A DNA stretch of 64,000 nt, counting the filler, from Streblomastix strix (taxonomy: Eukaryota): assembly GCA_008636045.1 (NCBI GenBank). It is 4 parts of 4 records of this genome, joined end to end, with 100 filler letters (N's around TTAATTAATTAA, not from the genome) between each part and the next. Parts side by side here need not be neighbours in the genome. Positions count along the whole stretch, not along the records: positions 16,045 to 31,981 come from SNRW01000905.1; 3 more parts are not named here. One strand, given 5' to 3'. The position numbers and the translations under genes are program-made. Below, one piece after another: positions 5,689-43,435 of the stretch (the first letter of the stretch is position 1; each line of letters starts with the position of its first letter). The notes beneath the pieces were generated by a model. The model was given only the letters and a program-made list of their open reading frames with translations, was not told the origin of the DNA and did not search any database.

Positions 5689-10316
<4,628 letters not shown>

Positions 10317-16044: not shown

Positions 16045-16610
16045 ATTATGATATTGATTATGATATTGATTATGATATTGATTATGATATTGATTATGAT
16101 ATTGATTATGATATTGATTATGATATTGATTAGTTTGATTAAAGAATTGTATTGATTAATTATATTGATTAGTTATATTGATTAATTATATTGATTAATA
16201 ATTTTGGTTAATTATTTTATACTATCTGTCACGCTGTCACGCTGTCACGCTGACACTCAAACTTCTATAATAGGCCTAGGTGGCAGGTGGCGGTGGCAAG
16301 TTATTTTTATATTAGTTGTAGTGATTAGTTATATTGATTAATAATTTTGGTTAATTATATTGATTAATTATATTGATTAATTATATTGATAAGTTTGATT
16401 AAAGAAGTATAGTGATTAATTATATTGATTAATTATATTGATAAGTTTGATTAAAGAAGTATAGTGATTAATTATATTGATTAATTATTTTATACTAGCT
16501 GTCACGCTGTCACGCTGTCACGCTGACACTCAAACTTCTATAATAGGCCTAGGTGGCAGGTGGCGGTGGCTGATTATTTTTATATTAGTTATATTGATTA
16601 ATTATATTCA
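16045..16610. repeat. Terminal repeat region: 12-bp tandem array plus duplicated GC-rich module
   Basis: (ATTATGATATTG) about x7 at 16045-16130. The module (CTGTCACG)3-CTGACACTCAAACTTCTATAATAGGCCTAGGTGGCAGGTGGCGGTGGC occurs at 16226-16297 and 16499-16570, with a diverged inverted copy at 24929-25001. Confidence 0.85.
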
Positions 16611-17138
16611 ATTAGTGTTGTTTGATTAATCTGTTATTCCAAAAGCAATTGTTAGGTCATGAATCGAAACATTAAATTACTTATTATTATATAACCAGAT
16701 TATTCCTTGAAGGATAGCATCAGCTACATCATCTTTTTTTTATAGTGAATGGAAGTAATTAAATGTATTACGTTAGCTTAGTAATTTGGTTATGTAAGAT
16801 ATTGATTATTATTTATGGTGTTTATTTTTCGTATCATATTATTAATGGATTGAAGTAAACTTTGATTTGGGATCAAACATAAATATTTTATCTGTATAAG
16901 TTAGTGCTAAAGCTACTACAGCATATTGAAGTTCCATTGCTATTGTATTAAACTAAACTTATCTCTCTATTATAACATAATCAATTGTACCGAATTACTA
17001 CTATATTTATCTGAACAATTCACGAATACAGATACACCTATTCACTATTACTGATTAATCTACTGATTAATTATTTTGCTATGTTATATTTATCTTATTT
17101 ATTTTTAACTTATTTATATTTATCTTATTTAGCAACAT
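16608..17138 (-). CDS. RuvC-fold Holliday junction resolvase, poxvirus A22/Ydc2-like (probably N-terminally truncated)
   Basis: Code-6 translation contains IDYVIIERQ and KKDDVADAILQG, matching the E and DxxD motifs of A22/Cce1/Ydc2 resolvases. The N-terminal DxG motif is absent. Confidence 0.75.
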
Positions 17139-18212
17139 TGAACTCCCACTAATAAGGAAACTATCTATGAATTTATGTACAATCATCTAGTCGAGCATAA
17201 GCTTCCTCATGATATTATGGAAAGAAAATTAATAAATCTAGTAGATACAATGAATTAAGTAATGAGTTTTAATAATTATTATCTATGGTTATTGATGGAT
17301 AGTTGTCACTTCATAATAGATGAAATCGTTAGTGTTACAACATTTACGAAACATACTAATTTCAATTCATTTGTTAAGGAATTTATGAGTATAAGATAGC
17401 AAGCGAAAGATGACCATAATGATGGTCTTGCGTAATTTGCAAAAATAGTATTGAATAGAGCATTCGGTGGTGATGCATTGAACAGTGAGAAATATTCAAA
17501 TACTAAACTGCTATTGTCTGAACGAACATTTCTATAGCACATGATGTCAGGATTCTTTAATTCTACAGAATTGAACGATGATTTGTACGCTGTATAAGTC
17601 GATAAAGAGAATTGTCACTGTAATACTTGTTTATAAGTAGCATATTTCGTATTAGATTCAGCTAAATTTTGGTACGTTAATTTCATATATAGCTTTATGT
17701 ACAAAGCATACGACATGAGTAGGATGCACTTCGTTCAGTGTGATACTGATAGTTTGACATGGGTGATTAGCGGTGATTCAAATCGTGGTCCCGAGTAACT
17801 GTTCGAAGCAGTTATCAAAGACTAATAGTTCCATGATAGGTACAAAGATAATGTGTATACAGATAACGGGAAGAAATTGATATTGCATATAGGTGTGGAA
17901 AAATACGGATCAAACTGTATTGCTTTATTACCTAAAAATTACATAATTAATAATAAGTTTGTGCTTAAAGGAAATATATTGGATCAAAACCCGTAGATAA
18001 ATTAATGAACGTTTATAGACTATATTAACAAGGGTAGTGTAACAACAGCTGTAAATACAACGTTAGCATAGCATAGAGGTGTAATGAGCAGGTTATAAAT
18101 GAGTCGTAACGCAATCACAGGTTCAATGACGAAAATGATAGTTCTTCCGAATCAATCGTGTCTTCCATTCATACATGAGATTAAAGCAGATAGATATTTT
18201 ACTAAATAATGA
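17130..18212 (+). pseudogene. Protein-primed family B DNA polymerase, C-terminal remnant
   Basis: KIVLNRAFGGD (motif B) and QCDTDSLTW (motif C), colinear with the pPolB at 43436-48003. The 5' part is missing and there is an in-frame TGA at 18006. Confidence 0.85.
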
Positions 18213-18236
18213 TTAATTTATTTTTGCTTTAATGAA

Positions 18237-18578
18237 ATGGACAAATAAGACAAGTACAAAGATGTTGCTGATAAACTTAATTAATGCACTTCATAAATGC
18301 GATAGACTAAGGAATTATTCAAATTATCTATGTAATTATAATAAATTATTGACCAGTTAAATTAATGTGCAGATCAATTAGATGCAAAAAAGTGTATATA
18401 AAAATAAAGCAAATCAATGTAAGAATTACTAAAATAAAAATTAGAGAAGGAAATACTGAATTTTAGTGCTGAAAACAGTTCATTGAACAGATTACATAAT
18501 GCATTAATTAATTACGATGAAGCACGAAATAATTATAAAGATGAATTAGAACAGATAGTCGAGAAAACTGATGTGTGA
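18237..18578 (+). CDS. Hypothetical coiled-coil protein (113 aa)
   Basis: Open code-6 frame MDKQDKYKDVADKL...EKTDV, bounded by TTATTTTT motifs. Confidence 0.55.
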
Positions 18579-18602
18579 TTGATTTATTTTTTGGCTAATG
18601 AA

Positions 18603-18767
18603 ATGCCATTCGAAACGCTATTCATACCATTAACAGAAAATTTAGCAGCAAATATTACTCTTGCTTTCGAAACATTTGATTCATTGGGAATTAATTGGAA
18701 AAGTATCTGAAAAATTATCTATGAAGCAGGAATTAAATATGCTTGCGAATCTAAATTGTGTAGATGA
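18603..18767 (+). CDS. Conserved viral micro-protein (54 codons, internal TGA)
   Basis: ...GINWKSI*KIIYEAGIKYACESKLCR, homologous to 36279-36404. Confidence 0.65.
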
Positions 18768-18792
18768 AGAATATTATTATTTTTGATATGAA

Positions 18793-20106
18793 ATGAATAA
18801 AGATCACCTTACATAGGCTAAATAAGATAGAGCATATGAACTATTGTTGTAAAATTATGATCAAACTGATCAGTAGATTAGTGAAGCAGCAATCAATATG
18901 TAGAACTAACTCACACATTTAGTAAGGTAAAATAATGGAGGGATAATGAAATTTGCATAGTTTATTTCAAATATGAAAATTACTCCGAGCAGAGCTGAAT
19001 AAGATATATTAATTAATAAAGCTAATGATATATAATTAAGTGGAAAAAGTATAAGTGAATGTTATTAAATTTATATAACTGAAGCATAATAATACAATGC
19101 TCCAATAAAACTTGCAAAAACAATTAGAAGATTACCTTATGTAAATTTATAGCCATAAACAGACCAATAATTAATAGAAATATTTCCATTCAAATCAAAA
19201 GTAAAATAATACGAAAAAATTAATAATGAAAGAGTAACGAAATAAACATAAATCAAAGATATTAAAGTGAAACCATTAAATAGACTCTAACGTCAATATT
19301 TCTCACCAAAATTAGGATCTTGGGAAATTGATCTTGTATTCGATACAAATCCAATAACACGAAGAAATTAGCAATACTTATTTGCGATCAACATTAGCAC
19401 AAAATATTTAGTTGTGATACCAATGATTAATAAGAGTGCTGCATAGATTAAACTTGCATTATAAAAACTCATAAAACAGGTATACGTTAACAATATAAGA
19501 GGAGATGGTGAGACTAGTTTTAAAGCTAATATTATTAAAAATTTTTGTAACGGTACGAATATTACGTTATTCTTCATATCATCTAGTTTCACTTAACATA
19601 ACAGAGTAGTAGATAATGTCATACTTACAATAAGAAATGGGTTTGGCTAAGATTTATTAGGTTTTGCTACTCCAAGTAAGATGTAATTGATGGTTAATAT
19701 ATATAACAAAACGCCGCATCTATCATATCATAATAAATTCACTCCTCAATAGATATAGTTGAATAGGGATTTAGAAGGTAAATTCATAAGATAAAAATAA
19801 GCATAAACGGAACAGATAATTTTGAATAAATAATGGGAAAATTTATTCAATTTCAAGAGTGGAAATATATTGATGATTCATGCAGATTATGCTAGGACTA
19901 ATGTAAGATTCTAGAAGTAGAGACGTTAATTCAATGAGTTAGCTACATTCGTAACTTATAAAAACGGTAATGTTGTATGTAAATTATTGAATCAATACTA
20001 AGGATTAGATGTTATTGAATTACCTATATTTTACTGTAAATTCATAAGTAACGATATCAATTCATTACCAGCAAACTATAAAAGTTAATTTAATATAAGT
20101 AATTGA
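18793..20106 (+). CDS. Retroviral-type (rve) integrase, 437 aa
   Basis: GSWEIDLVF, YLFAINISTKYL, IRGDGETSF, HNRVVDNVILTIR and YNKTPH motifs; start and stop are in the same frame. Confidence 0.85.
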
Positions 20107-20126
20107 GATTTTTATTTTTAAATCAA

Positions 20127-20627
20127 ATGCAAGCAAGTGAAACAAAACAAATCCGTAAAAGGTAATCAAAGAAACCAATTTCATAATTGAATGAAACATA
20201 ATCCAGTCCAATTGATGAAGTGCTTCATGCTCCTACGATTGATGCTCCTTTAATTAATTCACCTACAAATGATACATCACTTATTTCAAATACTAGTCCT
20301 TTTGCACAATTAGATCAAGAGAAAATTGAACTAAGAGGTAGACCAAAAAAATATAGTTCACTAGAAGAAGCTGAACGAATAGCCACCTAATAACGTCAAC
20401 GCGCACAATAAAAATATAGAATTCAGCGATAGGAATTTCGAACATCTGCAAACGATTTGTAACTCTTATTGATTCGACGTCTATAGAAAACCATCATATA
20501 TGACGTATAGGATTTATCTCAGATTAGCTAGATAATTGATCGGTACTGCTAATCAAACAACTAATCAAACAGTTCACCAAACAACTAATCAAACAACCAA
20601 TCATATAATCAATTGAACAATCAATGA
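20127..20627 (+). CDS. Small AT-hook (RGRPKKY) putative DNA-binding protein
   Basis: Open code-6 frame of 166 aa; ELRGRPKKYSSLEEA is followed by a basic helix. Confidence 0.6.
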
Positions 20628-20670
20628 TGTGGATTTATTTTTGCAGGTAACTATTTTTATGTTATAATAA

Positions 20671-20979
20671 ATGTAACACGACGAAAAGACTTTGACAAAA
20701 GAATAAAAAGAGTAAAAAGAGTAAAAATAGTAAAAGGAATAAAGCGATTAAAGATATCACGATTATATATAATCAATATCACATAATGGATCTAATTTGT
20801 CTAAAGAATAAAGGGAGAAAGGATATAAAAACAGTGCATTTATGTAAACTATAATGGATTTATTTGACGGAAAGATAACTTAATAATAAGCTAAGAAACA
20901 ATAAAGATACTACATTAATTAATAGAGATAATTAGATAAATAAGGTAAATTAAGATGGATTAGTCCAAACAATCAATGA
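20671..20979 (+). CDS. Hypothetical protein (102 aa)
   Basis: Open code-6 frame MQHDEKTLTKEQKEQ...RWISPNNQ, flanked by T-rich motifs. Confidence 0.45.
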
Positions 20980-21159
20980 GTATGAATTTATTTTTGCCTG
21001 TTAATTCTATGTGTTAGTCCTTCCTTTTAATGATTAGAGATAATAATAATATAAAACTTAATGGCAGGGTTCTATTTCCATTTTGTATTTTTTGTCTTTT
21101 AAGGTTATGCAAGTTAGTGTTAATATACTAGAATCATAGGTAATATTATATAAATCTCT

Positions 21160-21752
21160 ATATAAGACAAAAGACAAGACAAGACAAATCCATCAGAAGT
21201 TTGTGGAAATCATCTGCCATCTGCCATAATGCCATATCCTTCGATTTGAATCTAATTCTCCATAGCTAGTGAACATTCAACCTAAATTCTACCTAAATTG
21301 CACTGCCATACATTACCATTGAATATATTTATGGCAGACTTATCAAAGATCGACTTTCAGAATTGTCTTATCCTCATTTTCACAAATATATTGAAGGATT
21401 TTCGATAATCATAGAATCGTTCATTTTCAAAAATAGTTTCTATGTTCAATAGATATAAGACAAATTTGTTTCACTGATTTCAAGAGTCAAGCTATATTTA
21501 TAATTCTTATGGCAGACTATATATTGATTCATTCATTAATTATTCACTAGACCTTCAAATTCAAATTCAAATTGAAGGATATGGAATTATGGCATATGGC
21601 AGATGGCAGACAAAAATAGCTGGCGTTGATAGGATTTGTCTTGTCTTACATTTTGTCTTATAGATTAATTCATTCAATTCGTCCACAGCGCTTACACGCA
21701 CGTACTAACATGAGACAGAATTTTTGTCTTATCGTCAATTTGTCCGCCATAA
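21160..21752. repeat. Inverted repeat plus first copy of a ~165-bp repeated module
   Basis: 21160-21250 is an imperfect reverse complement of about 21566-21662. 21587-21752 is repeated directly at about 24682-24844, and more distantly at about 25120-25240. Confidence 0.8.
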
Positions 21753-21779
21753 ATTTTTGAACAAAAATAAATTCAATTT

Positions 21780-24625
21780 TCATTCTTCTTTTATACTCTA
21801 TACGACTTAATCAACGAATCTATCATCTTCAATTGATTTATTGTATTTCTGATAGTTTTTATTAGATACTTCGATATCTTCTTCATTCATCATTTTATCA
21901 TAATATGTTTATTAATCTTTGTTCAGTACATATACTCTTGTTTACACTCCGTTAAAATATGGTCTTGGAGTTGAGCATTTATGTTCCAAAGCATTCTTAT
22001 ATGTCTTTAATAACCAATTTTAAGGTTTACATTAATTTGCAAAAGCTACTGGAATTCCTTATTTGAACTATTCATAATGTTCCATAATTATATTATCTAC
22101 TGGTAATCGACTACCATTCATCAATTATTTTTTAGCTTCAGTCATTGGAATTATAGCAGAATTGAACTATGAAATATCTCTTTCAAGTAAGAATGTCATC
22201 AAATTCTCATAAAACTTTTATGTATAGCTTTAACTTAACTCTTTAAAATATTCAGCATCTTCTTTATGTTTTTCAATAATTTAATGAACAGTTTCACATG
22301 CACATACTAAATGACGTCTATCATCTGTGTCTAATTGTACTGGCATATCAGCGTTTGTTACATATATCACGTTCATAACATTCTCAGCTGTTCTTCTAGG
22401 TTGATTCTTCTCATTAATTCTTATAGATAAATCTGAAATTATCGATTTCATTACTGTTGCAACACCTTTCTTAGAACCGTTGTAATTCATTATCTCATTC
22501 AATACTGCAAACATCTTATTTTCAACTACTGAATTGAACCTTCCTATGAACTCATCTATGTTTGTTATGTTTGGACAGCTGTATAGACTTGTTAGTTCAG
22601 CGATAACATCAGTGAATCTATTTTTGCCTATTGCTTATCTACCTTATAATATAATTGCGGCTCTAGACTTTTTTCCGGGATTTTGTATCATCCATGCTAT
22701 CCAATTAACAATATATTCATAGACCCTTTCATCGCCTGCAGCAATAGTATCTTTAATTAAATCGAAGTACATTTACAAGCATTCGTAGTCGATTGTATCT
22801 AATTTCTTATATTTATACCCTTGGAATATTGTGAGAATTTTCAGATCTTCACTAATGAATTTGCATCCTTTCTTTACAAATTTTGAAGCATATTTCTTGA
22901 AAATATGCTTTGCTGTTAGTTATTTTTTATTATCATTTTCAGGATCTTTCTTTTAATTCTTATAATTTATAATCACTTTATCTAATTGTTTATAGATTGT
23001 TCTTTCTAATTTATGATATAAAACTTACATGTCACTAATAGCATCATATCCTTTAATCGCATATATATCTTCAGTTTCACCTTCGTAGTATACTAATAAT
23101 CTTGTTAAATCCTTTAAGATTTATTCTTCATTCTCATATTCTCCATTAGCAGCTTTTTCTAGCATATCAAGTAGTGTGAATTCATCTGATAGATCAATCT
23201 TATTCGGTATTAATGTCTAGCTAATTATGATTTATTTTTCCTTTTTTTTGCGTCATAATTCTTCTTCAATAATGGTATAATTATTTATTCATTGTAATCT
23301 TTGTTATGGTATTTTAAGATTTTTGTATGGATCCATGGATTTGGTTTACGTTCGCCATTAGAAGCTGCTTATCCATAGTTCTTTTCAGCGTTTGCAGTTA
23401 GCTTGTTAAATTAGCGTATATTATTTATTCCTTATAGTCGAATCGATTCATTAGTTATTCCAAATAATCCTGAGAATATACTTACAAGAGATACTTCCAT
23501 ATTAATAGCTTATGGGTAGTTATGAATGGTTAAATTCTTCAATCTAGCAATACAAGCTTATGCAAGTTCATCATTCATTTAATCAATAATTCCATCATTT
23601 GTAATCTGCTATCCAAATTCTCGTTTCTATTTCTTTTCAATGTATTCAATATATGATATCTCAATATCCACATTCCATTTATCCAATATATCTCTTAGAT
23701 TTGCTAGATGTGTCATGTTACTCTAATCATTAATTGTCTCATATTTAAGTATCTCTCGTTTATTATTTTTCGTTTCTCGGAATGATGAATTAGGTCCAAC
23801 CACTCGATTCTATATAAGTTCTTTTTATTCCGGATCATCAGCATAATGTTTATTCTTAAACATTTATCCAAATATATCAATCTAAATATTATCTAATATG
23901 ATACATTTTACACATCGATTTGCAGGTAAAATATATCCACTTCTATTACAATAAGCATGTAGTCCACCATGTGCTGTTCTAACTAAACCAACGTTAATAG
24001 GAAGCATGCTATTGATTATATTCTAGCGTATCTCATCAATCTTCTCTTTTGGTAGTTCATGATTAATATCAAAATCAATTACACATAAATCACCATCTTC
24101 GACAAGAGTTAAATCAACTAATTTGCCTGTTACTTATTTTTTCTAACCTTCTTACTAGCCTATTTTGGTATAATTTACTGTGTTAATCATAGCATTTTTA
24201 ACTCTTTCGCTAATAGTCTTATTCTAGAATTCTTAGTAATGTTATTCAAATATCGGTTCCAATACATCTAGAAGTTAATCTACTTATGTTTTATCATTTT
24301 ATACTTATTCTACTTGTTTCTATAACTTCTCTAATCTATATTCTTCTTATTACTTTTCAAGTCTTACTTCAATACATCCTTCAGAATTTAATAAATCAGA
24401 TATAGTTTATTCACTAGATTATTCAATAGGTTATTCACTAGGTTATTCAACAGATTATTCAATGGTTTGTTCCTTAATCATTTAATCAATTAATACTTTT
24501 GCCTTGTCATTGGTTTTCGATTTACGATTATACTTACGCGTTGGACCTTTTTCCAGTGTCTCATATTTAACGTTTATAGATTCATTTGAGTTTGATTTGG
24601 TGCTTGAGGATTCTACTGTTGTCAT
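21780..24625 (-). CDS. Prim-Pol primase fused to an SF3 (D5/NrS-1-like) helicase, with one frameshift
   Basis: Primase motifs LCVIDFD and VRTAHGGLHAY. Helicase motifs LQGRQAIGKN, AVLNE and YVTN..DRR. The frame changes at the A8 run 23242-23249. Confidence 0.85.
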
Positions 24626-27397
24626 TTTGCTTACGGATAAAAAGTTCAAATAGTTTGTTTAAACAATATTTTTTATTTAATTTATGGCATATGGCAATGG
24701 CAGATTAAATTCTCAGGAGTTAAAATTTTTATCTTGTCTTGTCTTTTGTCTTATAAGGATAATTATTCAATTCGTCCGCAGCGCTAGCACATATGCACTA
24801 ACATGAGACAGAAATTTTGTCTTATTGCCAATTTGTCTGCCATATTTATTGGTATGGTCATTGCATTCAATTTCTCCATAATTCTAATATTATTAACAAA
24901 TTCATTAATTAAAAGAATCAATTAAATTGCCACTGCCACTTGCCATCTACCTCTTTATATAGGAGTTTGGGTGTAAGCATGACAGCGTGACAGCGTGTCA
25001 GTTTATGGAATGGATTATTTATCTCAATTATACATCTCATTTACAAGTAAATATTAGTGTCACGTTACATCAAATATGTCAGTATGTCGATATATCACGC
25101 TTTTTTCGTCGGACTCATAAATTTTTGTCCCGTCCAGTCCTTTTGTCCTAATGGATAATTCACTTCATTTACCCACTCCGCTGGCACATTCATACATTAA
25201 TGGGACAAAATTTCTGTCCACACTTTCATTTGACTGACGAATTTCATTTACCGACCGACTGACCGACTTCTGCTCAAAGGGTTAATTTTAGGGGGGTCCA
25301 ACTCGGCATACTGGTACATATGATTAATTCAATCAATTTATCCACTATTTCAAACATAGTCATCAGAGTATTCAATAGACATAGTCAATTCATATCATCT
25401 ATCCACACAAATAATTAGTACAATCAATCTTCATAATTCACCTAATACAACTGTTGTAACACTCCCTTTTAACATCAAATTCATGATCAGCATATCAACA
25501 TTACCCTTAGGACTTATTCTCAAGTCAATTGGTAAACATTTATTTTTCCTTATATTTTTCACTTTTTATTAGAATATATATTAAAATAAAAATATTTTAT
25601 AGTAGGTTAGAATAACCATTAAAAACTTAAAATTTCATATCTCTCTGATATACTACTCTAAGGTCATATCACACACATAGATTCCAAAAATTATGTTAAT
25701 AATCAATTCTGTAACTGTTCAACACAGTCAATCTTAACAAATAATCCATTTCATTCATCGTATAACTAGTCGATACAATTATTTAATATTTTAGTGGACC
25801 TTGGATCATATATTATAATAATATATATGAATTATACAAATCCTCAAAAAAAGAGAAGTTGTGATTTTTTTATTTTTTTGTATAAAAATTAAAAAATTTT
25901 TTTTATAAATTTTATAAATATCTTTGCTACATATTAATTGATTTGATCAATTTAATATTTATTACGTACAATATATATGATGTAACTACAATATAAATAT
26001 AAATATAATAGATAGCTAATTTCTGTACATCAAAATTAAAAATATACAAAATTTTGATACAAAATTTTTAACGATTTTTTGATATTGGTTTGATTAATTC
26101 TATGTTATTATTTCTGTTGTGAAAATTATTTTATTTTATATTTATATTTGTATAATAGATATGTGTATGCATTATTACTAATATGCGTATTGAAACATTA
26201 AACAAAAAATTTTTATTCAAACAATTAGATCTGTTTCGATCAAAAAAAATACTACTAATTTTGAATCGGAGTTTATACTTAATTAGACTTTGTAATACAA
26301 CAAAAATGTAAGCAAAATAATTAATCAATTAATTTTGAGATAATATGAAATGGGCTGATTAATCGTATATTCATCTTTACAAATAAAATCAACAATCTAT
26401 CAACATATAAATGGATCAGGAGTTAAAATTTCTTTGATAGTTGAACTTCAGCGACTTGCTGACAATGTTAGTGTTTCGCATATAATATCCTGCTCATAAA
26501 ATGATTGCTGGAATGGATCTATTTAAGAAGTTATCCCCTCTTTCTTGAGCCGCATTTCTACTTCTGGAATAGTTGGTAATGAAGTACAATAAATATTTTT
26601 TAATTTATTATTTAATTAGAAGCTAACATTCTTGGACTCAAAATTTAAATTATAATAAAAATAATTAATTATTCACTTAAAAAATCTATTAATTCTGTCG
26701 AAATACCTATTATAAGTTGAGCTGAGATGGAGTTTTATGGAATGTACATATATGAATTATGATTATTATTGAATATCAATTGATTTTTGGAAAGAAGTTA
26801 AATAATTAATGTTTCCATTTAGCTTTGAGAATGAAATTTACATACAATGTTGATATATTGAATTTAAAAATACTGTATAAATCGATATCTTGAATTGCTG
26901 TTGAACACAAATTTTGTTATAAAAAAGTTTATGATTTTGTATCGATAAATTGAATTGAATAATGAATAAATATTGAATGCCCCGAGTGTCTCAACTAAAA
27001 GAGCAAAATTATCTTATTCTGAAAATTAAGAGACAATAAAACAATGAGACAATTAATAAAAAACATAAATAAAAATAAATTTAATCCAAATAAAAAATTT
27101 AAAATTTAAAGAATTTAACTTATTTTAAAAATAAACAAGTTAGTTTTAATAAAATTTAACACATAATGTATATTAATGATTTTATTAAATTTATATTTAA
27201 ATGCTAAGTGATAGAATTAGAGATGCAATAATAGATATATATAATTATATTTAATTTCCAATAATTAAAAATATTGGTTTTAAATCAGGATATGCAATTG
27301 ATATAGCAAAATTGTAAGGTTTAAAAATTATTCTTCATCGTCAGAAGATTTTTAGAAAAACAAAAAACTTTTAGAAAATAGAAAAATATATCATATA

Positions 27398-27932
27398 CAG
27401 GTGCGGGAAAAAGTGTCTGCACTCGACTTTTCTGGGCATATAATAAGAATTGTATGTTGTAATGTATATAAATATTATACATATAGTATAATGCAAAATG
27501 TCATTTTTTCTCAATCAAATTTGATCTATTTATAAAAAAGTTGTCAATTTAAATTTTTCACTTTTTTTACCATTTTGGCATTAAATGCTTAAAAATTATA
27601 ATATCCATATTTTCTTAAAATTAAGTTTTATTTTATATTATATATAATAATTATATTTAATATACAAATATATAATAAATAAATATCAAAAATTTAAAAT
27701 AAAATTTAATTTCAAAATAATATGGATACTTTAATTTTTAAGCACTTAAAGCCAAAATGGTAAAAAAAGTGAAAAATTTAAATTGAAAACTTTTTTATAA
27801 ATAGATCAAATTTGATTGAGAAAAAATGATATTTTGCATTATACTATATGTATAATATTTATATATATTACAACATACAATTCTTATTATATGCCCAGAA
27901 AAGTCGAGTGCAGACATTTTTTCCCGCACCTG
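27398..27932. mobile_element. Foldback MITE, Tc1/mariner-type (535 bp)
   Basis: Near-perfect inverted arms of about 210 bp beginning CAGGTGCGGGAAAAA, flanked by TA on both sides; non-coding. Confidence 0.88.
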
Positions 27933-28310
27933 TATATTAAATAAACAATAATTTTTTATTAATTTTGTAAATCAAAATTTTGAATATTGAATTAATAAGT
28001 CAATAAATTTGTGAATGAATAATTTATATGTATTATAATATTAATATATACGAAAAATATTAATTTCCTCAACTGTTTGATTATAAAAATACGTTACAAA
28101 AATAAATAATTAAATTTAATAAAATTTCTAAAAAGCTTCAAAAAAATATTAATAATATTAGCACATGACACATATATATGAAATAAGTTTAAAAAAATAA
28201 AATAATAACAGAATAATTGTCAATGCCGGAGTAATTAAATTTAGCTTCGGAAAGCTCTAATTGAATATTTCGATAAAAATTTATATCATAAAGTATTATA
28301 TAACCTAAAA

Positions 28311-28634
28311 ATGAATATAAATATAAATATTCCGAGAAGAAATTGTAAAAGTTTCATAATATTTTTCCGAAATTTAGTACGCAATGGTGGATTTGGAAAG
28401 CATGGTGGATTCGGAAAACATGGTGGATTCGGAAAACATGGTGGATTCGGTGGACCTGGATTTGGAAAACATGGTGGATTCGGTGGACCTGGGAAACACG
28501 ACCTAAAGAAGCTGTTGTATCTGTAATAGGTTGGAGCACAACCAACTGAGGAAGAAGGGACCACAACTTCTTCATCTTCGTCATCATCTTCGTCCTCATC
28601 TTCGTCTTCCTCTTCATCAACTAGCGAGGAATGA
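28311..28634 (+). CDS. Gly/His-rich repeat protein (GGFGKH repeats, poly-Ser tail); 5' structure uncertain
   Basis: GC-rich 18-bp tandem codon repeats with variation at synonymous positions. In code 6 the frame continues to TGA at 28632. Confidence 0.55.
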
Positions 28635-29446
28635 ACTCTTGATATGAAGAGATTTGGCCTAAGATAGTAGTTTAATTATTAATACTGAAATTTTTTTTTT
28701 GTGATGCAACGAAGCAAATAATTAACTTATTTTTTGTAGTCAGCACTCATAATTCGTCAATAAACTTATTGTAGTTTATATTTTTGCAGATATTATTTTA
28801 TTTACTCATTTTGGTTAGAGCGAAATATCAAAAATTCACGTAACTCTTTGCAATCAATAGATGGAAACATTAAGATAACGATTTATCAATTTGAAAGTCT
28901 TTCTGTTCTTGTGCTCGCTGAAGATATCATTCTTATTTGCTGCGATAATTGCTACAAACACCATACTCTAGCTTGTTTTAAAAAATGAAGACAAACTCCC
29001 TTTTTCGCCTATAGCTTGCTTTCTAACAAGATGGTACGAATTTACACTGGATTTATCTCAATTGTAATATATATTTTTAAACATGTTATACAGCGTGGCT
29101 GTCGTAGCACTATCACTTACTTTTTTGGAATACCGAGCGATCAAACCAGCGATGAGTAAGCAGGTTAAGATTTAGGAGGCAAATGGGAACTTCCTTATGG
29201 CAGTAATGTAAGTTCACCTCATTTTAGACGTTGCCGCACTACTGCTACTCTTCGACCTCTTCTTCCGTATCAAAGCCGCAAAGAACTTGTCATTTGCTAT
29301 TCTTTATATTGGAATATCAATTATTATTACGCTGAGATCGACATGGATTCGTGCATAGATTAGCAAGCCTAAGACTTCAAAGAAATGATCTCAAGCAAAT
29401 TTTTATTCTTTTGTGAATTTTATTTCACTTCATTCATTTGTATTAT

Positions 29447-31981
29447 TCATAAATAAATTGGGTAAAATGCTTGTGGAAGTGAGTGCTCTTCTCCATTCCA
29501 CACGAATTATGCATATAAAACATTACCAAAAAAATCTTTACCTTCTTCACCTCTACATGCCCTTACACAATCAGGCATAAAGTTCATTTCAAGTAGCACT
29601 GGTTAAATGTGGATGTTCAATTGGTTCGAATTTTGGATCTTAACAACAGTACGTTTAAGCATCACATCTATACCGTATGAAGCTGCACTCCAACCAACAG
29701 ATGCTATATGTGGTATAGTATTAGAATTATTGATAGAATCATGATCAGATGAAGTTGCAATTGTAAATATTTCTTTAAGCATATTATCAATTCTATGTTA
29801 TACATTCTTCCATGAATTGGATTACATAGCATCTTCATCATTAGGATAAGTGTTTCCATAATATTCTTATCTCTTTCTAAGTTCATTACTCAATAATATA
29901 TATCTCTGATTCTACATTTCATATAATTGAATAAATTAATTATCACTCATCTAAATCCATCTTCCTGTATTCTTATTATCATTAATATCCGTTTATCGAT
30001 AATTCATAACAGTAAAATGCTTTTCATATTCATCAAAAGTGTCCAAAGAAAATGGAATATTAGCTATACGTATCCAAAATCGTTTGTAGACTATTATGGC
30101 AAATCTTGGCGATTTTAATTAATTATTAGATCTTATTTCTTCATTAAATGTATTGTTTTATAATGGTTTTAAGATTACAATGAATCGTAAATCAAATTTA
30201 AAAAGAGGAGGATCAGTAAATATAGGTTTGATAATATGAATGAATTGATTTGTATAAGAATGAGATAAAGAAGAAGATTAAGTATCAGATGTAGAAGATT
30301 AAGAAACAACAAAATCTGGAACAGAAATGAGAAATGGAGTATCAATATATCTTTATATTATTCTAGGAATAGAAGCTTCTCCAATTGATAACTAAAAATG
30401 ATTGGATGTTGTATGTGGAAATGGAGTTACAGGTCCTATAAACATTCCCATTGATCTTGCTTAATTCCAAGGTTTACTTATAAATAGTTATAATTATGTT
30501 GTAGATTATCCAATCTCAGAAATCCATTTATTAAATTCTTAAAGACGATCATTCTCACATTTACCTTCTCCAAGGTTGAATGATGGAATAAACCAAGATA
30601 ATGAAAGAGAATTATAATATTTTTGCTATTCATCATTTTAGGATCTCTATATTTATCTTTCCATTGCTGTTCTAACCATTCGTGATAATAAATGTTTATA
30701 TACAAGGCATTCTTCTCCAGGAATTTGATTAATATACGTAAATTAAGATTCTTTAATTTATTTTTCGTTCTAATTATCATTTTTATGGTTTATTTAAAGT
30801 AATTATTTAATTCTTTTAATTTCTTCTTCTCTTTCAGAATCTTTTAAACCAATTTCCCATAATTTATCTGAATTTCCAATTTTTTCACCAATTTCTGGGA
30901 AGTGACTCAAAAATGATCTTATATCCTCAGTTATCCAAATAATATCTGCTTTAAATGGATCATCAATGGTCTCAAATTAAGCTAATGAAGTTGATAGATG
31001 AGTTGATACAAGATTGGAATCAGTATATACGAAATATTTCTTTTGTTAATATTCTAAAGATTTAATTTATTACTAATTATTTAGTTATTTTATAGATATA
31101 TTTTCTTCTAAATCATTATATCTATTTGGAAAATATTCATTAATAGCTTTTCTTTATTATTAGTTTTGATTTATATAATGCTAAAGACCCATTAACATTT
31201 CTTCAAGTCTTTCTCTATATTTATTTATTCTTTAATTATCATTAATTGCAACTGATGCAATATTCTCAAAATAATCTCTCGTCAAAGGTTCTCCAGGATA
31301 AATATCTCTAATTGGCCAACAAATAATTACAAATTATCCATTTTCTTTAATTTCTTTAATTTCTTTAATTTCTTTCTTTTCATTATAATTAATTTATTCA
31401 TTTCTTTAATCATAGAATATTCTATATTTAATATTTGGCAAATAAGAATTATGACATATTCTACTTCCAAGTTCATCAGGAAGAAACCAAATATATTCTG
31501 TTTTTAAATTATTATAAGTATTATCTTATTTTAATTCATCATTAATATCTTAAGGAGATACAATACTAATTACTTATGCAATTCTCCAAAATTCTTCTGC
31601 TGCTCGTTAAATTCTCTCTTCTTCTTCTCTAATTTAAATAAATGGATCTTTTATAAGATGTGGAACTTTGAGTTAAGAAGAGGATGATTAGGATGAAAAA
31701 GAAGATTATTATATTATTTGACTTTGATGAATATTTAGTTAATAGAACTCAGAATGAGGTGAAATTCCATTAAATTGTTGTAAATGAGGAAATATTATTG
31801 AAATAAAACTTCGGAATTCTTCAACTGGATTTTTGATTTGTTCATTTGAATTTAAAGAAGAAGATGAAGCAGAATAATTATTTGATTAATTGTAGATGGA
31901 CGAAATAAATTATTAATAAGGAGATTATACTGAAAACACGTCTTTATATAAATCTTCCCAATCAATTCTTTATAAAGAGTA
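29447..31981 (-). CDS. TTLL12: Tubulin-tyrosine ligase-like protein, TTLL12-like (5' end cut by contig end)
   Basis: KPWNQARS, IIQRYIDTP, FKFDLRFIV, YGIDVML and PVLLEMNFMPDCVRAC. Confidence 0.8.
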
Positions 31982-32081: not shown

Positions 32082-32795
32082 AAATATTTTGAATAATGTA
32101 TAATTAAATTATTTTTGTAATTTAGATTGATATATGAAGCCTATACAAGAAAAATAGTGGCACACGATTTTTTTGTAACCCAACAAGTAATATTAATTCA
32201 TAATATGAGTTTTCAACAAATTTGCACTTATTTATTAAAAAAAACATATTTTTTAAATTCAGATATAACAGCACGCTTGTGCTAACTGTTTTTCCTGCAT
32301 ACCTCCACAACAAAGTAACATAATACTTTCATTTATTAATATTCATACGTAAATAAATGAATAATTTACAAATTATTATTAAAAACTAAATATAATATTA
32401 GTATAGTATGAAGAAGTTTGTGGTAACTTCAAAACCATATTAATCCATATCAATTCGCCCGCGCCAAATGACTCGGTGTGACAAATTGATTTTTTTAATA
32501 TGATTTTAAACTTACCACAATCAATCTTCATATAAATATGATATAAACATATTGTAAAGCATTAATCCATAGCACCAATCCATATAATTAATCCTACGTG
32601 CAGATTCTAAGCGTTAATCTTAAAAATTAATCCAGCGATAAACCCATATGATTAATTATATGATTTGTCATATATATGAACATACGAAATTGTTCTGGCG
32701 CTTGTTACTAATTTATAATTAAAAAATATAAAGTATTAACCAATAAAATTGGTCTTTCTAATAAATTGTGTGGAGCCTATTAAAAATAATCAAAA

Positions 32796-33955
32796 TCATT
32801 TTTTATTAAGATAAGCCTCAGCTATACGTATAGAGTCTCGTGTATGATCAAGCAAAGCATATAGATGTTGTACTTATTTTTACTTTAGTTCTATATCAAA
32901 ATCTACAATTTCTTTAGTCTTTTGTTTATATTCGTTTAATAGTTATACTTCTTGTTGTTTAAGAAAATCATATTGTGTCTAATCCATTTTTAATATAGGA
33001 ACAAAAATATAATCAAAGATCGTTATTAACTTCATATTATAGATATCTAGACTCTTCAGCTTCTCTTGCAACTCTAGTATTATGTATCGTACATTAATTG
33101 TGACTAAGTTGTTTCATTTATTTAATATATTAATTTTTGTCACCGACTATTTTAATATTAGCTTTATAATCATTGATTTGATTATCTGTTAAGAATAAAC
33201 AATCACTTATCTCAACTGTATTATAATTATCATATGGAATATTACTTATCAATACTATTTCATCTTAATCATTTGTATATACTATTTTATAATCCATTTT
33301 ATACAGAGAACAAAAAATAATTGTTCAATATAAATCAAAATTAATATCTTTATCCTATTCATCATATTATGCAGATTCTTCTTAACATTAGTTTGTAGCT
33401 TTAACTTATTATGGCTCTTCTTTTTCAATAATCTATTTTGGTTACTTATATCGCTTAACTTTTTATATATATTTCTCTATTTGTTTAACAGCATCTTAAT
33501 GTTATTGTTTAATAAATGAATTTTTAGTTCGCAACCTGATTAGTTCTTCTAAATCAAGTTGAGCATTAGCATAATTAATTTATGGAGTTTTAGATGTTTT
33601 TACTACTCTTTTTCTAACTTGTTTCTTTAACGGTTTTTCCCTTACTTCGCTTATTGATGTTTCATCGCTTTCATTTTAATCTTCCTATTGTTAATTTGAT
33701 ATATATAATCTTCTTCTTCATCTTCAATTTATTTTTAAGGTTACTTTTATACTTTTTTCTTTGATTCTAACCCGCCTCCACGAGCTAATAGCAATAACAT
33801 ATTCTATTATGTTTATGTTAATTTTCTATGAGTCTTCTTTCCTTCTTCGAAGACCTTTATATCTTTATTAATTTAGATTACATATCCATTGTCAAAGTAT
33901 TCAATATTTGTTCCATTCTCTTTCAAATTCTTCAATGCATGTTGTAAGTCCATTT
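32796..33955 (-). CDS. Three small hypothetical viral ORFs (two frameshifted)
   Basis: Code-6 frames starting MDLQHALK (about 33955), MDYKIVY (about 33297) and MDQTQYDF (about 32987), separated by TTATTTTT-like motifs. Confidence 0.45.
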
Positions 33956-33976
33956 GAATATTTTTAAATAAAGAAA

Positions 33977-34699
33977 ATGATAAAGGACATAGAAAGAAAC
34001 TAAATTCGAATGTCAAAAACTAAAAAATAAATGTCAGAGATTAAACATAAAGAACTGACGGATGAGGATAAAATAAGATTGCAATTGATCGATGATGCAA
34101 TTAGTCGCATTAAGACAATGCCTACAGTAGACGAAACTGTCAAACCAAAAGAAAATCCAACTTAAACTGAGAATGAAACTATTCAAGTAACTCCTGAATA
34201 ATTGATCCTTACAGAATAAAAAATTACTAAATATAAGAGTAAATATAATAAAGATAAACATAAACAAGTAGATAGAACAACTGAATAAGTTGAACCGGAT
34301 GAAGTTGTTAAAAATACATATCTTTCACACCCTAATTTGTAGGTAATGAAATTCACCATTGACCAATTATGGAAGACGGTAACAAAAAGAAATAGAGGTG
34401 ACGATTTCATATTCTCATCAGATAATTTTATTAAACTTTGGTCATTAATCACATAAGAAAATGAAGAAGATATAGAAACTGTATTAGAAGAGCAATTAAT
34501 GAGATCTCATTCATGCATAGGTAAATCATATAAAAAGAAAGATCTAATAAGAATGATGGATATATTGATTAAAAATGTATCAGTTAAAGTATTAGATAAT
34601 GTGCTATATAACTCTATTGAGAAATTGTACGGTGTGAATTGTGACTTTGTTCGTTTATCTGATGCACCTGAGATAGAAATTACAGATAACGATTTTTGA
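33977..34699 (+). CDS. Hypothetical viral protein (frameshifted)
   Basis: Coding-like code-6 frames ending ...APEIEITDNDF. Confidence 0.45.
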
Positions 34700-34751
34700 A
34701 ATAATTTAACCGTCTATTTTATACAATTAATTATTTTTATCGACAACAAAA

Positions 34752-35165
34752 ATGCTTTCAAAATCAGAAATAGTCAAAGGTAAATTGCTTGTTCATCCTC
34801 AAAATATACCTAAGGAAATTTACGTTGAACCTATATATTAATGTGGTGATGATTTCTATTAATGAACATTAAATAAAAATAATAAGCCTTACTACAAGTT
34901 ACTAAAACGATACGGTACTAATCAAAATTATCCGTAACAAATTTATGTATTAATTGAGAAGAGAAATAATGAACATATTGATGATACAATTAAATAGTAT
35001 GACTAACAGATGAAAGTCTTACGTGACAATATGGATATAGGTATAAAATATCGAGAGTTAAAAGAAGCGGTTGAATAAATGTAAGCTCAAACAAAATATA
35101 ATTAATACAATTAATATGGAGTTAAATGTACGGTTAATAGTATAGATTATTATGTTGAAAAATGA
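34752..35165 (+). CDS. Hypothetical viral protein (internal TGA at 34863)
   Basis: MLSKSEIVKGKLLVHP...YYVEK, 138 codons. Confidence 0.5.
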
Positions 35166-35188
35166 TTACTGATTATTTTATATTAAAA

Positions 35189-36232
35189 ATGGATCAAAAT
35201 TTAAGTGATTTAGATTTGATTGATGAAGATGACCAGATTAATTAATATGAATAGGTTAGTAAAATAATATAGTAATAAGAGGGGTAATAAAAATAAATTA
35301 AAGAACGTAATTCATTACTACAAGTTATTGATAATGAGATTATTAAGTATTTTAATTATTTGAGTTAGTTCTTTAGGAATTCTATCGATTTTGTTAATTT
35401 GCATACTGACTAGATTATTCGTGGGGTTAAGACATTTCTATAACCTATCATAGTTGGTAAAATTATTAAATAAGGTGGAACAAGTAACTAATTATTACAA
35501 GCTAATGGTGACACAACTGATGTGGGTAATTTCTTGCCTAAATACTATCCTCATGCTATGATGTAAATGATAATAGAACCTATTGATGACATATGTAATT
35601 AAGGTATTAGGATAATGAAAAATAAAGCGAACTGGGATAGCTTTGTTCTCACTGGTTGTGATGCTGATCCATCAAATAGAGATGGTGTATGAAAGATGGG
35701 ATCAACTTCATCATAATTCAGGATTCAAAAATAAGTGGATGAAGCTTATGATTATAAGGGATTGATTATAGATTTTGATTGTACAACTCTTAAGTTCAAT
35801 AACCAATTAGTAGCACCATTACCATCCCCTCCAATTGATTATGCTATTTAATAGTCATTAGGTTTTGGCGTATTTGATTTCTTTACATGGGGATAGGTAA
35901 CCTTATAGAATAATCGTGTATATATTTCTATAGCAGTTACTCACTCTGACCCTAATACGTATTGGAATACAGGTTATACTATATTTTCTGTTATGAATGA
36001 CGCTGCTAAACCTAAGTTCAGTGGATCACCTCGTAATTTACCTCTTAATGCTGTTATATATGCGACAAAGTAATCTAGTAATCCAGTTACATGGATTAAT
36101 CCCGTTGCTATTGATTGTTACGTTGATGTAGATGGTCATATTAAGATTAATGCTATATGTTAGTTTTATTTACTTGATGATTTTTTAGTATAAATTTGCG
36201 ATTCATATGCTATTAATAATTAGACTTCTTGA
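35189..36232 (+). CDS. Fibre-like virion protein 1 (internal TGA at 35690)
   Basis: QIIRGVKTF and IIKQGGTSNQLLQANG resemble phage tail-fibre motifs. Shares a QGIRI..W..GLxI..TLxFN module with fibre 2. Confidence 0.6.
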
Positions 36233-36278
36233 ATAACAACAAAATTGTTGGCATAAATGCTAATTTAAAAATAAACAA

Positions 36279-36404
36279 ATGAATCCAATTAACGAAACAA
36301 TAATCTATTCCCTCGAATAATTAAACATTAACTGGCATGAAATCTTTAAAGCTATTTGGGAAGCAGCTATCAAATATGCTTGCGAATCAAAAATTTGCCA
36401 TTGA
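36279..36404 (+). CDS. Conserved viral micro-protein (41 aa)
   Basis: MNPINETIIYSLEQLNINWHEIFKAIWEAAIKYACESKICH; homologue at 18603-18767. Confidence 0.7.
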
Positions 36405-36425
36405 AAAATAAATTTATTTTTACGA

Positions 36426-38417
36426 TCATTGTGGTTTAATAGCCCCACCAGCAAGCTCGCCAATTAATTCGATATTTAATACTTAGGGCATTGATCTATC
36501 ATCAAATATTATTCTAACAAACGCATCACATAAGTAATGCATCATTGGTGTAATAGATGCTTTAGTTGGATCGGGATAAGCTCGAGTTCCAATGAATTAT
36601 TTGAAATCATTTTAGTTCTAAGCTGGAAATATGTTAGTTGTATCAATAATTCCTTTAATTAAATTTCCTTACAAAATAACCTATATATTAGTTCTAGAAC
36701 CTATCTTTGAAGAGTTAAATCCTCGCATAAATGAGTCATCAGTAGCCAATTTCCATGCAAGCATATATTTGTTAGGGTAAAGTGTTTTAATAGCTTTACT
36801 CCCACTATACAATGTTGTTAAATAGAATATGTTTTCTGTTGCAAGTGGATCATCATCTATCACTCCATAGAAATTATGCTAATCATTAATGGATCTATTC
36901 TCAAATGTAAGTGAATGATATAGATCTGATGGAGCACTAACTACATCTTAATCAACGAAGCAGTCAAACATTTATCCATTAGTTGCTTATTTTAATGATT
37001 TATATGGTTATGGGATAACATTATTCTAATCAATTATTAGATTAAGCCCTGTGAATAATACTGAGAAACACCATGTAGGATATTAAGGCATAGCATATGT
37101 CATAAATAGTGACTTTATGTTAGAGAATGACATAAAACTTTACAAATATCCACTATCTTTACCAAATCCACTAAATGGAAAGTTCGAAGATTATGTTCTA
37201 AATACTTATGTAGGAAAATTAATTATTTTTTGTGTCTGAATCAGACTAATTATAGCTTCTTCATTTTCAATATTGAAGCATACGTTCTAGATCTCCAATA
37301 CATCAAATTTAGCCGTCCCAATCTAACTAATTGAATTTTATGGAGTCTTATCACCAGCAGCTACATTTTACATATTTACAATTCTTACATTATATCTTTA
37401 ATACGTTAGAGCATCAGCAGCATTTCCTGATAATAGATAAACAATATCTGGTTTCTCCGGAGGAATCATATGATAAGCTAAATGATTATTTTATATAGTA
37501 TCATTTTTGTTAAGCCAAACAACCTTCAAATCTTGTAGGAAATCTTATATCCATAATTATAGATGTAATGATGCATAATTACGTGTAAGAACAGGAAATG
37601 AGTTAATTATAGGATTTAGTTAGTTAAGATCAAGCACTCCACTAAATGTAATATCGTTAGGAATTTTGTAATAGAATAGTGTAGCAGTAGGTGACTCCTG
37701 TGTTCCAGCTGTTGCGTATCTATCAATTTCACTAAGTGGGACATCAATAAATACTCCAAAATGACGTTTTCCTTCTATTATACTTTCTAAAGGTGATACG
37801 TTAACGCTATTTTTAGTACACAAATCACTAAGAGAATTATCACTAATCACAGCTTATTCCCTTGCATAAATAGCTGATCCCCATTGTGCTGTTGCATCTT
37901 TCAGTAGTTAGAATTAGTAGAATGGTCCACAGGCAGTAGAGAAACCAATCCAAAATTATAGACGTTCAGATTTTTCAATTCCATCTGCTGATTTACTATA
38001 ATATCCTTATGCTGTTTATGACATATTATCAGTCCAATTAGCTAATGGATCTTTTTTACCATTAAAGTTAGTTCGTGCGATTAATTTAGCTATAGAATCA
38101 TAATCTTCATATGTTTTATTTAATTATATTGCTAATGTATTTGCTTGTATAGTAATTGTCCAATTTACTTAACAAGTTTATACCATCGAACAAGTAGATT
38201 TACCTCGTGCTCCTAATGGTGCTCTAGTATATTTAACTCCACTAGATGTAAGTTCAGTAATAGGAGAATCGAAGAAATTTTGCTTAAATATTTCAAATGA
38301 CTGAGGATGGATAGATATAGTTTTTATAACCTCCCCAAGTTACATATATCCGCTAACGTAATTTGAATGTTGCATTTTTGCTAATCGTCCAAGATAATCA
38401 CTAGATTTGAATGGCAT
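36426..38417 (-). CDS. Probable double jelly-roll major capsid protein (663 aa)
   Basis: Long beta-strand-rich code-6 ORF in a pPolB/ATPase element. The C-terminal FMRGFNS...HYLCDAFVRIIF is reminiscent of PLV capsids. The call rests on context and composition, not a database match. Confidence 0.6.
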
Positions 38418-38483
38418 TTCATTGAAACAAAAATTAATGAAACGGAATGGATGTTTAAGTTAATAGTTTTTATAATAAATCAA

Positions 38484-38690
38484 ATGGGTTTCTTCTCTAG
38501 AATTGCAAATTTTGGATCAAAAATATTATGTGGTGTTAAGAAAGCTGCATAATGGGTTGCACCAGCTTTAAATAAAGTTTTGTCAACAATATCAGGTCCA
38601 GTTGGAATGATTCATCCGGGAATTGGAGGTGCATTAGGTGCAGGGGCTAATCTAGCAGGTACGGTGGATCGTCTTGTGAATCATAAATGA
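38484..38690 (+). CDS. Small amphipathic Gly-rich protein (68 aa), putative membrane-penetration or cement protein
   Basis: MGFFSRIANFGSKILCGVKKAAQWVAPALNKVLSTISGP...; divergent from the capsid gene. Confidence 0.6.
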
Positions 38691-38786
38691 TTCATCCCAG
38701 CATAGCTGAGTTAATAAACGGTGATGACATCGTAATTTATACTCTTTGAGTCTAAGAATCTTCGATTATTATTTTTGAATAAAATT

Positions 38787-40718: not shown

Positions 40719-40740
40719 TGTAAATTTATTTTTGAAATAA

Positions 40741-42817: not shown

Positions 42818-42839
42818 TTATTTTTATCTATACAAAAAT

Positions 42840-43418: not shown

Positions 43419-43435
43419 AAAATAATTATTTTTGA

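What the first reader, a model, noticed from the sequence alone, without database searches (positions are those of the whole stretch)
16608..17138. Poxvirus A22/RuvC-like Holliday junction resolvase inside a pPolB/integrase element
The minus strand encodes ...IDYVIIERQ...KKDDVADAILQG next to the terminal repeats. This resolvase type is characteristic of large nucleocytoviruses and fungal mitochondria (Cce1/Ydc2) and is not a standard Polinton core gene. Together with a primase-helicase it suggests concatemer- or recombination-based replication in a small element (inference).
Basis: partly seen in the sequence, partly recalled or inferred. Interest (0 to 1): 0.8.

Follow-up and report, generated by a model that had tools for sequence, protein, structure and literature searches.

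The report
Clipped giant-virus resolvase in protist Polinton
A small virus-like element in a protist genome (likely a termite-gut oxymonad) carries the gene for a DNA-junction-cutting enzyme likely taken from a much larger virus, but this copy lacks the start of the gene, including one catalytic residue, so it is predicted not to cut DNA; a similar capture is already published for another protist.

Summary
The family call is right. The code-6 minus-strand frame is a poxvirus-A22-type RuvC resolvase: 195 relatives, fold matches to fowlpox/canarypox resolvase, RuvC and Ydc2. But it is 5'-truncated. The first strand with the catalytic Asp (fowlpox D7) is found in no frame of the window. The gene's broken 5' end meets a 5'-truncated pPolB head-to-head across a 15-nt tandem repeat. 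Other contigs of the one sample examined, 6-8% diverged, share this junction; differences among copies are mostly synonymous (18 of 29, 21% expected). Its closest relatives sit in large-virus contigs (RNA polymerase, VLTF2-like, A32-like genes), none with Polinton genes (0 of 24 loci); I infer an egovirus-like donor, without a reference to compare. Best reading: an accessory gene captured by a Polinton-like subfamily, recoded to TAR=Gln, later clipped. Concatemer replication is not shown. Precedents exist: PF04848 resolvase in Oxyrrhis PLVs, and egovirus genes in parabasalid Polintons. What is new is the host group and a possibly selected dead form. The scan's notes returned no earlier report of this feature.

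The parts
16045..16607 (.). Left repeat region: 12/13-nt tandem units and two copies (273 apart) of a GC-richer motif with CTGTCACG x4; begins at the contig end
16608..17093 (-). A22/RuvC-type resolvase remnant (code 6): keeps the equivalents of fowlpox E60, Q62, K129, D132, D135 and the dimer helix; lacks the first strand with D7 and N12
   Evidence: residue names from PMC6962361
17084..17131 (.). Junction: 15-nt unit x3.2 joining the resolvase's broken 5' end to the pPolB remnant; encodes the low-complexity KININKLKINKINIT stretch
   Evidence: bridged by other contigs with one unit fewer
17126..18212 (+). 3' fragment of protein-primed DNA polymerase B (starts at residue about 1157 of the 1330 read for the pPolB on the next contig); 1-nt frameshift near 17145, in-frame TGA at 18006
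   Evidence: (PF03175 E 8e-6)
18793..20106 (+). Retroviral-type integrase-like ORF
   Evidence: rve E 0.081, weak; start motif
21780..24625 (-). Primase-like N-part plus SF3 helicase, split by a frameshift near 23250
   Evidence: DUF5906 E 1.6e-16, VapE-like E 2.6e-5; the primase label rests on recalled DxD/GxH motifs, no Pfam match
24886..25001 (-). Inverted copy (75% over 116 nt) of the left GC-richer motif; candidate sub-terminal inverted repeat

Best explanation
This is the 3' three quarters of a poxvirus-A22-type Holliday-junction resolvase gene inside a Polinton-like element, likely captured from a large egovirus-like DNA virus and later clipped by a deletion that is predicted to leave it unable to cut DNA. 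Shown: family, fold, loss of the first catalytic strand, head-to-head junction with a clipped pPolB, several diverged copies, mostly synonymous divergence, TAA/TAG=Gln use. Inferred: the donor was a large virus sharing the host cell; the whole gene served a subfamily of the element as an accessory nuclease for branched DNA left by replication, recombination or integration; one deletion then removed the 5' ends of both divergent genes, and the shortened element was copied by enzymes of intact relatives.
For: Family: 195 relatives at E<=0.001 of 1.84 billion; 72 of 74 relatives scanned match Pox_A22; 74 of the 150 listed were given. Truncation: 225 of 232 relatives of 150 aa or more carry the first-strand motif; an N-terminal profile scores at most 1.1 bits anywhere in the window's six frames against 37-54 bits on 7 full-length relatives; structural alignments start at residue 12-18 of the canarypox, phage and bacterial RuvC chains; D7A blocks cleavage in fowlpox resolvase (PMC3439875, passage). 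The ATG at 17138 lies in pPolB-derived sequence and lacks the start motif found before four plus-strand genes of the element. Donor: 24 close loci, none with a match to seven Polinton-type queries in 148,987 bases; they hold an RNA polymerase largest subunit whose best PDB matches are 1,440-1,450-aa viral-type chains (that these are African swine fever virus is recalled), a shared FCS zinc-finger neighbour in 4 of 24 loci (VLTF2 label recalled) and a weak A32 match; relatives lie on contigs up to 118 kb and 175 kb. The window's protein falls with these, apart from 16 distant large-virus resolvases (99/96). Egovirus resolvase genes are reported to have moved into gut-protist genomes and KilA into parabasalid Polintons (10.1101/2024.03.23.586382, abstract, sections 5 and 7 and passages).
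Against: No full-length copy was seen: three contigs 6-8% different from the window share the clipped junction, so the synonymous bias may have built up after the deletion, which this reading explains only through unseen whole copies or exchange with them. The AU test did not reject a tree with the window's protein outside the close group (p 0.275), its branch is long and its sister is unresolved. No reference egovirus sequence was compared, and most of the 24 loci are short. The copies come from one sample.
Confidence: 0.5

Rival explanations
1. The clipped form is itself the selected product: a short protein made from the ATG at 17138 that keeps the dimer helix and basic DNA-binding surface but not the active site, and would act as a decoy that poisons the resolvase of a co-infecting large virus or shields branched DNA of the element.
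For: Three diverged contigs share the junction (12 of 155, 8 of 125, 10 of 150 letters differ); 18 of 29 listed differences in the core are synonymous against 21% expected, p 2e-6, and 2-5 of 29 in four other frames (13 in the antisense frame that shares third positions); the retained part has no stop or frameshift while the pPolB and primase-helicase of this copy do; length variants at the junction are 12, 15 and 6 nt. Fowlpox resolvase dimerises through helix B (PMC6962361), which is retained.
Against: The lost strand is the central one of the five-stranded sheet (established knowledge of the RNase H fold), and residues 1-30 of the model are low-confidence (pLDDT 44-68). The ATG lacks the element's start motif. 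The 12- and 15-nt variants equal the local repeat units, so they need no selection. Differences could not be phased to junction-bearing copies; only 40 of 90 difference rows and 7 of 29 loose-end rows were shown; most listed sites come from one or two diverged copies.
Confidence: 0.25
2. The gene never worked in the element: a fragment of a large-virus insertion (or of a host-held copy of the viral gene) was joined to a broken Polinton and spread as a passenger; the selection signal comes from the donors.
For: No whole gene seen in the element; the other pPolB element in the window (32082-48003) has no resolvase in the part visible; resolvase genes are reported as sporadic transfers into gut-protist genomes.
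Against: A contig 9% diverged joins the gene's 3' end to the same left repeat (record 1); the stop codon sits directly against the repeat; the gene is heavily recoded to TAA/TAG=Gln while the 24 close loci read open under table 11.
Confidence: 0.15
3. One reading: resolvase and primase-helicase form a core module, and the element replicates through concatemers or recombination, as poxviruses do.
For: Both genes lie in one element; poxvirus resolvase cuts concatemer junctions at inverted repeats (PMC6962361, PMC3439875, passages); small viruses with this resolvase and an SF3 helicase exist (mriyaviruses, PMC11253617, passages).
Against: This copy is predicted inactive; the element has a protein-primed polymerase, which copies linear DNA end to end without concatemers (established knowledge); pPolB relatives in the same sample continue into pPolB sequence instead of the resolvase (record 8; loose ends at 17148).
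Confidence: 0.1

Closest known systems
Poxvirus A22 resolvases (fowlpox Fpr PDB 6P7A/6P7B, canarypox 5E6F; Pfam PF04848)
   Same: Same fold and family; E60, Q62, K129, D132, D135 equivalents and the dimer helix are kept.
   Different: Only 15-19% identical in structural alignments; first strand with D7 and N12 absent; read under code 6; lies in a small pPolB element.
Egovirus resolvases and egovirus-to-Polinton KilA transfer (bioRxiv 10.1101/2024.03.23.586382; abstract, outline, sections 5 and 7, passages read; supplements closed)
   Same: The resolvase is named an egovirus core gene found in gut-protist genomes; gene flow into metamonad Polintons is described; the close loci here look like divergent large-virus DNA.
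   Different: That paper names Parabasalia and Trichostomatia; 'oxymonad', 'Preaxostyla' and 'Streblomastix' occur 0 times in its main text, and the Polinton gene it describes is KilA. Membership of my loci in Egovirales is inferred, not tested; its figure S7 and tables may bear on this.
Oxyrrhis marina PLV (OmPLV) with HJR PF04848 (PMC12721341; passages read)
   Same: A Polinton-like endogenous element of a protist with an A22-type resolvase, said to derive from large viruses and proposed to resolve integration intermediates.
   Different: OmPLV has a tyrosine recombinase and SF1 helicase-pPolB fusion and no rve integrase; here an rve-like integrase, an SF3 helicase and a clipped resolvase. 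Whether the two resolvases are one capture was not tested.
Metamonada-group Maverick-Polinton EVEs of Streblomastix strix (PMC10120064; passages, section 9, keyword search of 3 supplements, one cut when stored)
   Same: Endogenous code-6 pPolB viruses in this kind of host.
   Different: 'Resolvase' and 'RuvC' occur 0 times in the main text, and 'resolvase', 'Holliday', 'A22' 0 times in the held supplements; this copy shows no capsid, ATPase or protease gene.
Mriyaviruses (PMC11253617; passages read)
   Same: Small (35-45 kb) viruses with an A22-like resolvase, nearly all with an SF3 or SF2 helicase.
   Different: They are tied to Nucleocytoviricota by VLTF2/VLTF3; the element here has pPolB and an integrase-like gene and no such factors were seen in it.

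Membership tests
Pox_A22 / RuvC-like resolvases | Sequence match to PF04848 and to solved poxvirus resolvases | tested here: met
   E 4.4e-4 directly, below the curated cut-off; 72 of 74 relatives match; their profile finds 6P7B at E 9.5e-13
Pox_A22 / RuvC-like resolvases | RuvC/RNase H fold | tested here: met
   Model pLDDT 86.7; Foldseek top ranks fowlpox resolvase, Ydc2, RuvC though none at E<=0.001; VIA-align Z 12.4 (rmsd 2.8, 137 aligned) and Z 10.5 (rmsd 2.2, 114 aligned)
Pox_A22 / RuvC-like resolvases | [quoted passage not shown] | tested here: not met
   Three kept, D7 strand absent from all frames; so a remnant of the family, not a complete member
Pox_A22 / RuvC-like resolvases | Homodimer that cleaves four-way junctions | not testable with these tools
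   Needs biochemistry
Maverick-Polinton | Protein-primed DNA polymerase B | tested here: met
   PF03175 E 8e-6; 3' fragment only
Maverick-Polinton | Retroviral-type integrase | tested here: inconclusive
   rve E 0.081, below cut-off
Maverick-Polinton | Long terminal inverted repeats and target-site duplication | tested here: inconclusive
   About 110 nt inverted at 75%; left end is a contig end
Maverick-Polinton | Capsid proteins, packaging ATPase, protease | tested here: inconclusive
   No such match among the element's 10 frames scanned; they may have lain in the deleted part; hence 'Polinton-like'
Egovirales (donor of the gene) | Relatives lie in large, gene-dense viral genomes with RNA polymerase and other Nucleocytoviricota genes | tested here: met
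   Atlas clusters for relative P0155 are 96-100% viral
Egovirales (donor of the gene) | Phylogenetic placement with reference egovirus proteins; large capsid protein, pp220/pp62, gut habitat | not testable with these tools
   No reference sequences at hand; bioRxiv supplements closed; habitats of the loci not determined

The most novel reading that the evidence does not exclude
A Polinton-like virophage of an oxymonad took the resolvase gene of the egovirus-like giant virus that shares its cell, cut away the catalytic strand and keeps the dead, dimer-competent remainder under purifying selection as a dominant-negative weapon against that virus's genome resolution; it would also extend egovirus-like viruses to oxymonads and invertebrate guts.
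Probability: 0.13. Interest if true: 0.8.

Novelty: new variant of a known kind. Interest (0 to 1): 0.42.

Why it matters
At minimum it is a genomic trace that a large virus of the egovirus-like group met an oxymonad lineage, a host group not named in the egovirus preprint's main text, and a second kind of gene passed from such viruses to metamonad Polinton-like elements. Such transfers are the main evidence on which giant viruses these elements co-infect with. If the clipped form is kept by selection, it would be a candidate mechanism by which a small integrated virus interferes with a giant one, testable with two purified proteins. If not, it is an ordinary decayed passenger with a published parallel.

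Tried and rejected
No whole genome is held, so copies could not be counted or phased. Word-index protein searches with the window's protein found nothing (15 candidates at 78-251 aa; 332 at 311-2000 aa). Direct PDB sequence search gave no relevant hit. Scans of viral contigs with the resolvase, relative P0004 and the helicase found no relative; with alignment A3 only distant resolvases of 23-30% identity (25 loci); the 19-nt repeat motif hit 6 loci with no Polinton genes. No RNA holder listed: no evidence either way on expression. Summed contig depth over the resolvase is far below that over integrase and helicase, but the tool states that it cannot rank genes, so it is not used. Rejected: frameshifted, split or spliced N-terminus elsewhere in the window; assembly artefact at the junction (three other contigs bridge it); fungal-mitochondrial Ydc2 origin (weaker match than A22). 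Control for synonymous bias in other genes was too small to rank (3 of 5, 2 of 6, 5 of 13 listed sites). PDB searches of three neighbours in L030 gave nothing. The single-sequence fold of the 663-aa ORF on the next contig failed (pLDDT 28), and three short peptides of it were not in the held supplement. No complex prediction was run, so dimerisation of the clipped form with a whole resolvase is untested. Literature searches: Streblomastix+Polinton (1 paper); Holliday junction resolvase+Polinton (18, 15 listed); resolvase+Maverick+Polinton+Trichomonas (4); egovirus (9); Streblomastix/endogenous/virus/resolvase (490 with three terms, 10 listed, none of them with both Streblomastix and resolvase); Polinton-like+A22+resolvase+virophage (7, 4 listed). 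None of the passages read reports this gene in an oxymonad element; most subscription journals are not searched.

Full report
Setting. The window is four contigs of about 16 kb joined by N-linkers; the finding lies on 16045-31981. Long frames open under code 6, and tubulin, WD40 and aldehyde dehydrogenase pieces on the other contigs show a eukaryote. The best holder among public runs is recorded as termite gut metagenome. Earlier scan notes name Streblomastix strix (unchecked), which fits the code and the endogenous viruses described in PMC10120064 (passages and section 9). I treat the species as likely. No whole genome is held.

Observation. The minus-strand frame 17366-16608 is open under code 6 and holds the quoted motifs. 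Pfam gives Pox_A22 at E 4.4e-4, below its cut-off, from profile position 45 on. A full HMMER search found 195 relatives at E<=0.001, 111 at 1e-10; 72 of the 74 that I scanned match Pox_A22. A profile of 62 relatives matches 16662-17117 at E 2e-47 and finds fowlpox and canarypox resolvases (E about 1e-12), then Ydc2, then RuvC in the PDB. The model (pLDDT 86.7, 37 sequences) ranks fowlpox resolvase, Ydc2 and RuvC first by Foldseek, none at E<=0.001, and gives Z 12.4 to phage RuvC and 10.5 to canarypox resolvase. The family call stands.

The gene is clipped. Fowlpox resolvase uses D7, E60, D132 and D135 (PMC6962361, passages), and D7A blocks cleavage (PMC3439875, passages). The window keeps the last three but not the first strand; 225 of 232 relatives of 150 aa or more have it. 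A profile of the N-terminal part scores at most 1.1 bits in any frame of the window and 37-54 bits on seven whole relatives, so no frameshifted, split or spliced start is present here. Where the start should be lies a 15-nt unit repeated 3.2 times (17084-17131), then, on the plus strand, a pPolB that begins in mid-gene, at about residue 1157 of the pPolB on the next contig. The ATG at 17138 lies in that pPolB-derived sequence and lacks the T-rich...AAATG start motif seen before four plus-strand genes. The simplest account is one deletion through two divergent genes (inference).

The element. After the pPolB remnant come small ORFs, an rve-like integrase (E 0.081) and a frameshifted primase-like/SF3 helicase gene. 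About 110 nt of the left repeat region recur inverted at 24886-25001. True ends cannot be seen, and no capsid, ATPase or protease gene matched. It is a Polinton-like, probably non-autonomous element.

Other copies. Contigs of three runs of one sample were laid on the region. One contig, 26 letters different over 277, joins the gene's 3' end to the left repeat. Three contigs (12 of 155, 8 of 125 and 10 of 150 letters different) bridge the clipped junction, so it is no assembly error and was copied. Of the 40 difference rows shown (of 90), 29 fall in 16662-17060; 18 are synonymous against 21% expected (p 2e-6, pN/pS about 0.16). The other frames give 2-5 of 29, and the antisense frame sharing third positions 13. 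Most of these sites come from one or two diverged copies and could not be phased. No loose end pointing to a whole gene was among the 7 of 29 rows shown. Other contigs run from 17148 into ordinary pPolB sequence. So the gene was under purifying selection, and whether before or after clipping is open.

Where it came from. A scan of metagenome contigs kept 80 of 83 relatives; 24 loci match the query alignment's first sequence at 34-49%, the rest mostly at 22-31%. The window's protein scores 160 bits on the family profile, within the 24 close loci (101-210) and above 81 distant ones (24-94); the profile was built from proteins found with the window's own sequence, so this is partly circular. The close loci gave no match to seven Polinton-type queries. 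They are gene-dense under table 11 and hold an RNA polymerase largest subunit, an FCS zinc-finger neighbour in 4 of 24, weak A32 and XPG matches, dUTPase and a nucleoside kinase. The polymerase's best PDB matches are 1,440-1,450-aa chains ahead of archaeal ones (African swine fever virus by recall). Relatives lie on contigs up to 175 kb. In a 226-row quick tree and a 43-row careful tree (16 of 33 distant loci, 14 close loci after removing near-copies, 12 proteins) the window falls with the close group (99/96) on a long branch without a resolved sister; the AU test did not reject a place outside that group (p 0.275). This picture fits egoviruses as described in bioRxiv 10.1101/2024.03.23.586382 (abstract, sections 5 and 7, passages), but no reference was compared. 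Unlike those relatives, the window's gene uses TAA/TAG for 17 of 20 Gln, including the invariant one, so it has long been read by a code-6 cell.

Mechanism. Best reading (0.5): an accessory junction nuclease captured from a co-infecting large virus, later clipped, with the shortened element copied in trans. Rival (0.25): the clipped protein is the selected product, a non-cutting decoy or junction binder. Rival (0.15): a passenger fragment that never worked here.

Comparison and novelty. A PF04848 resolvase in a Polinton-like element is published for Oxyrrhis marina (PMC12721341, passages). The egovirus preprint reports resolvase transfers into Parabasalia and Trichostomatia genomes and KilA into parabasalid Polintons; it does not mention oxymonads in its main text, and its supplements were closed. 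Mriyaviruses pair this resolvase with helicases in small genomes (PMC11253617, passages). PMC8715426, PMC11296320 and 10.1101/2025.04.19.649669 were searched by passage and added nothing on this point. The searches listed under Tried and rejected showed no report of this gene in an oxymonad element. Verdict: a real but clipped gene, a new variant of a known kind of capture; interest 0.42, higher only if the clipped form proves to be maintained.

Noticed in passing
window 32082-48003: A second, more complete pPolB element (43% identical polymerase, HNH endonuclease, a 663-aa possible capsid protein, a fibre-like ORF); no resolvase in the part visible.
   Followed up: partly
window 44009-44011: In-frame TGA in the second pPolB where the first element's polymerase has Trp; the frame continues in phase. 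Decay or TGA read-through.
   Followed up: no
window 21150-21751 and 24682-24844: Repeats flank the primase-helicase gene directly and inverted; other contigs join about 21616-21662 to 25119-25154, skipping it, so the gene may be a removable cassette or these are repeat-driven joins.
   Followed up: no
window 18237, 18603, 18793, 20127: A shared T-rich...AAATG motif precedes four successive plus-strand genes of the element.
   Followed up: partly
window 27387-27943: A 266-nt-arm inverted repeat, 92% complementary with a 25-nt spacer; MITE- or foldback-like.
   Followed up: no
window 29450-31981: Tubulin-tyrosine-ligase-like host gene on the same contig as the element (weak SET_TTL match), showing integration in host DNA.
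   Followed up: no
window 8214-8951: An 18-nt tandem array of about 35 units.
   Followed up: no
L030:10073-12853: A 927-aa protein of a large-virus locus with a PCIF1-like domain match (E 1.4e-6), possibly a capping enzyme fused to a cap methyltransferase.
   Followed up: partly
P0007, P0017, P0025, P0031: Resolvases of the close group with long low-complexity N-terminal extensions (463-660 aa).
   Followed up: no
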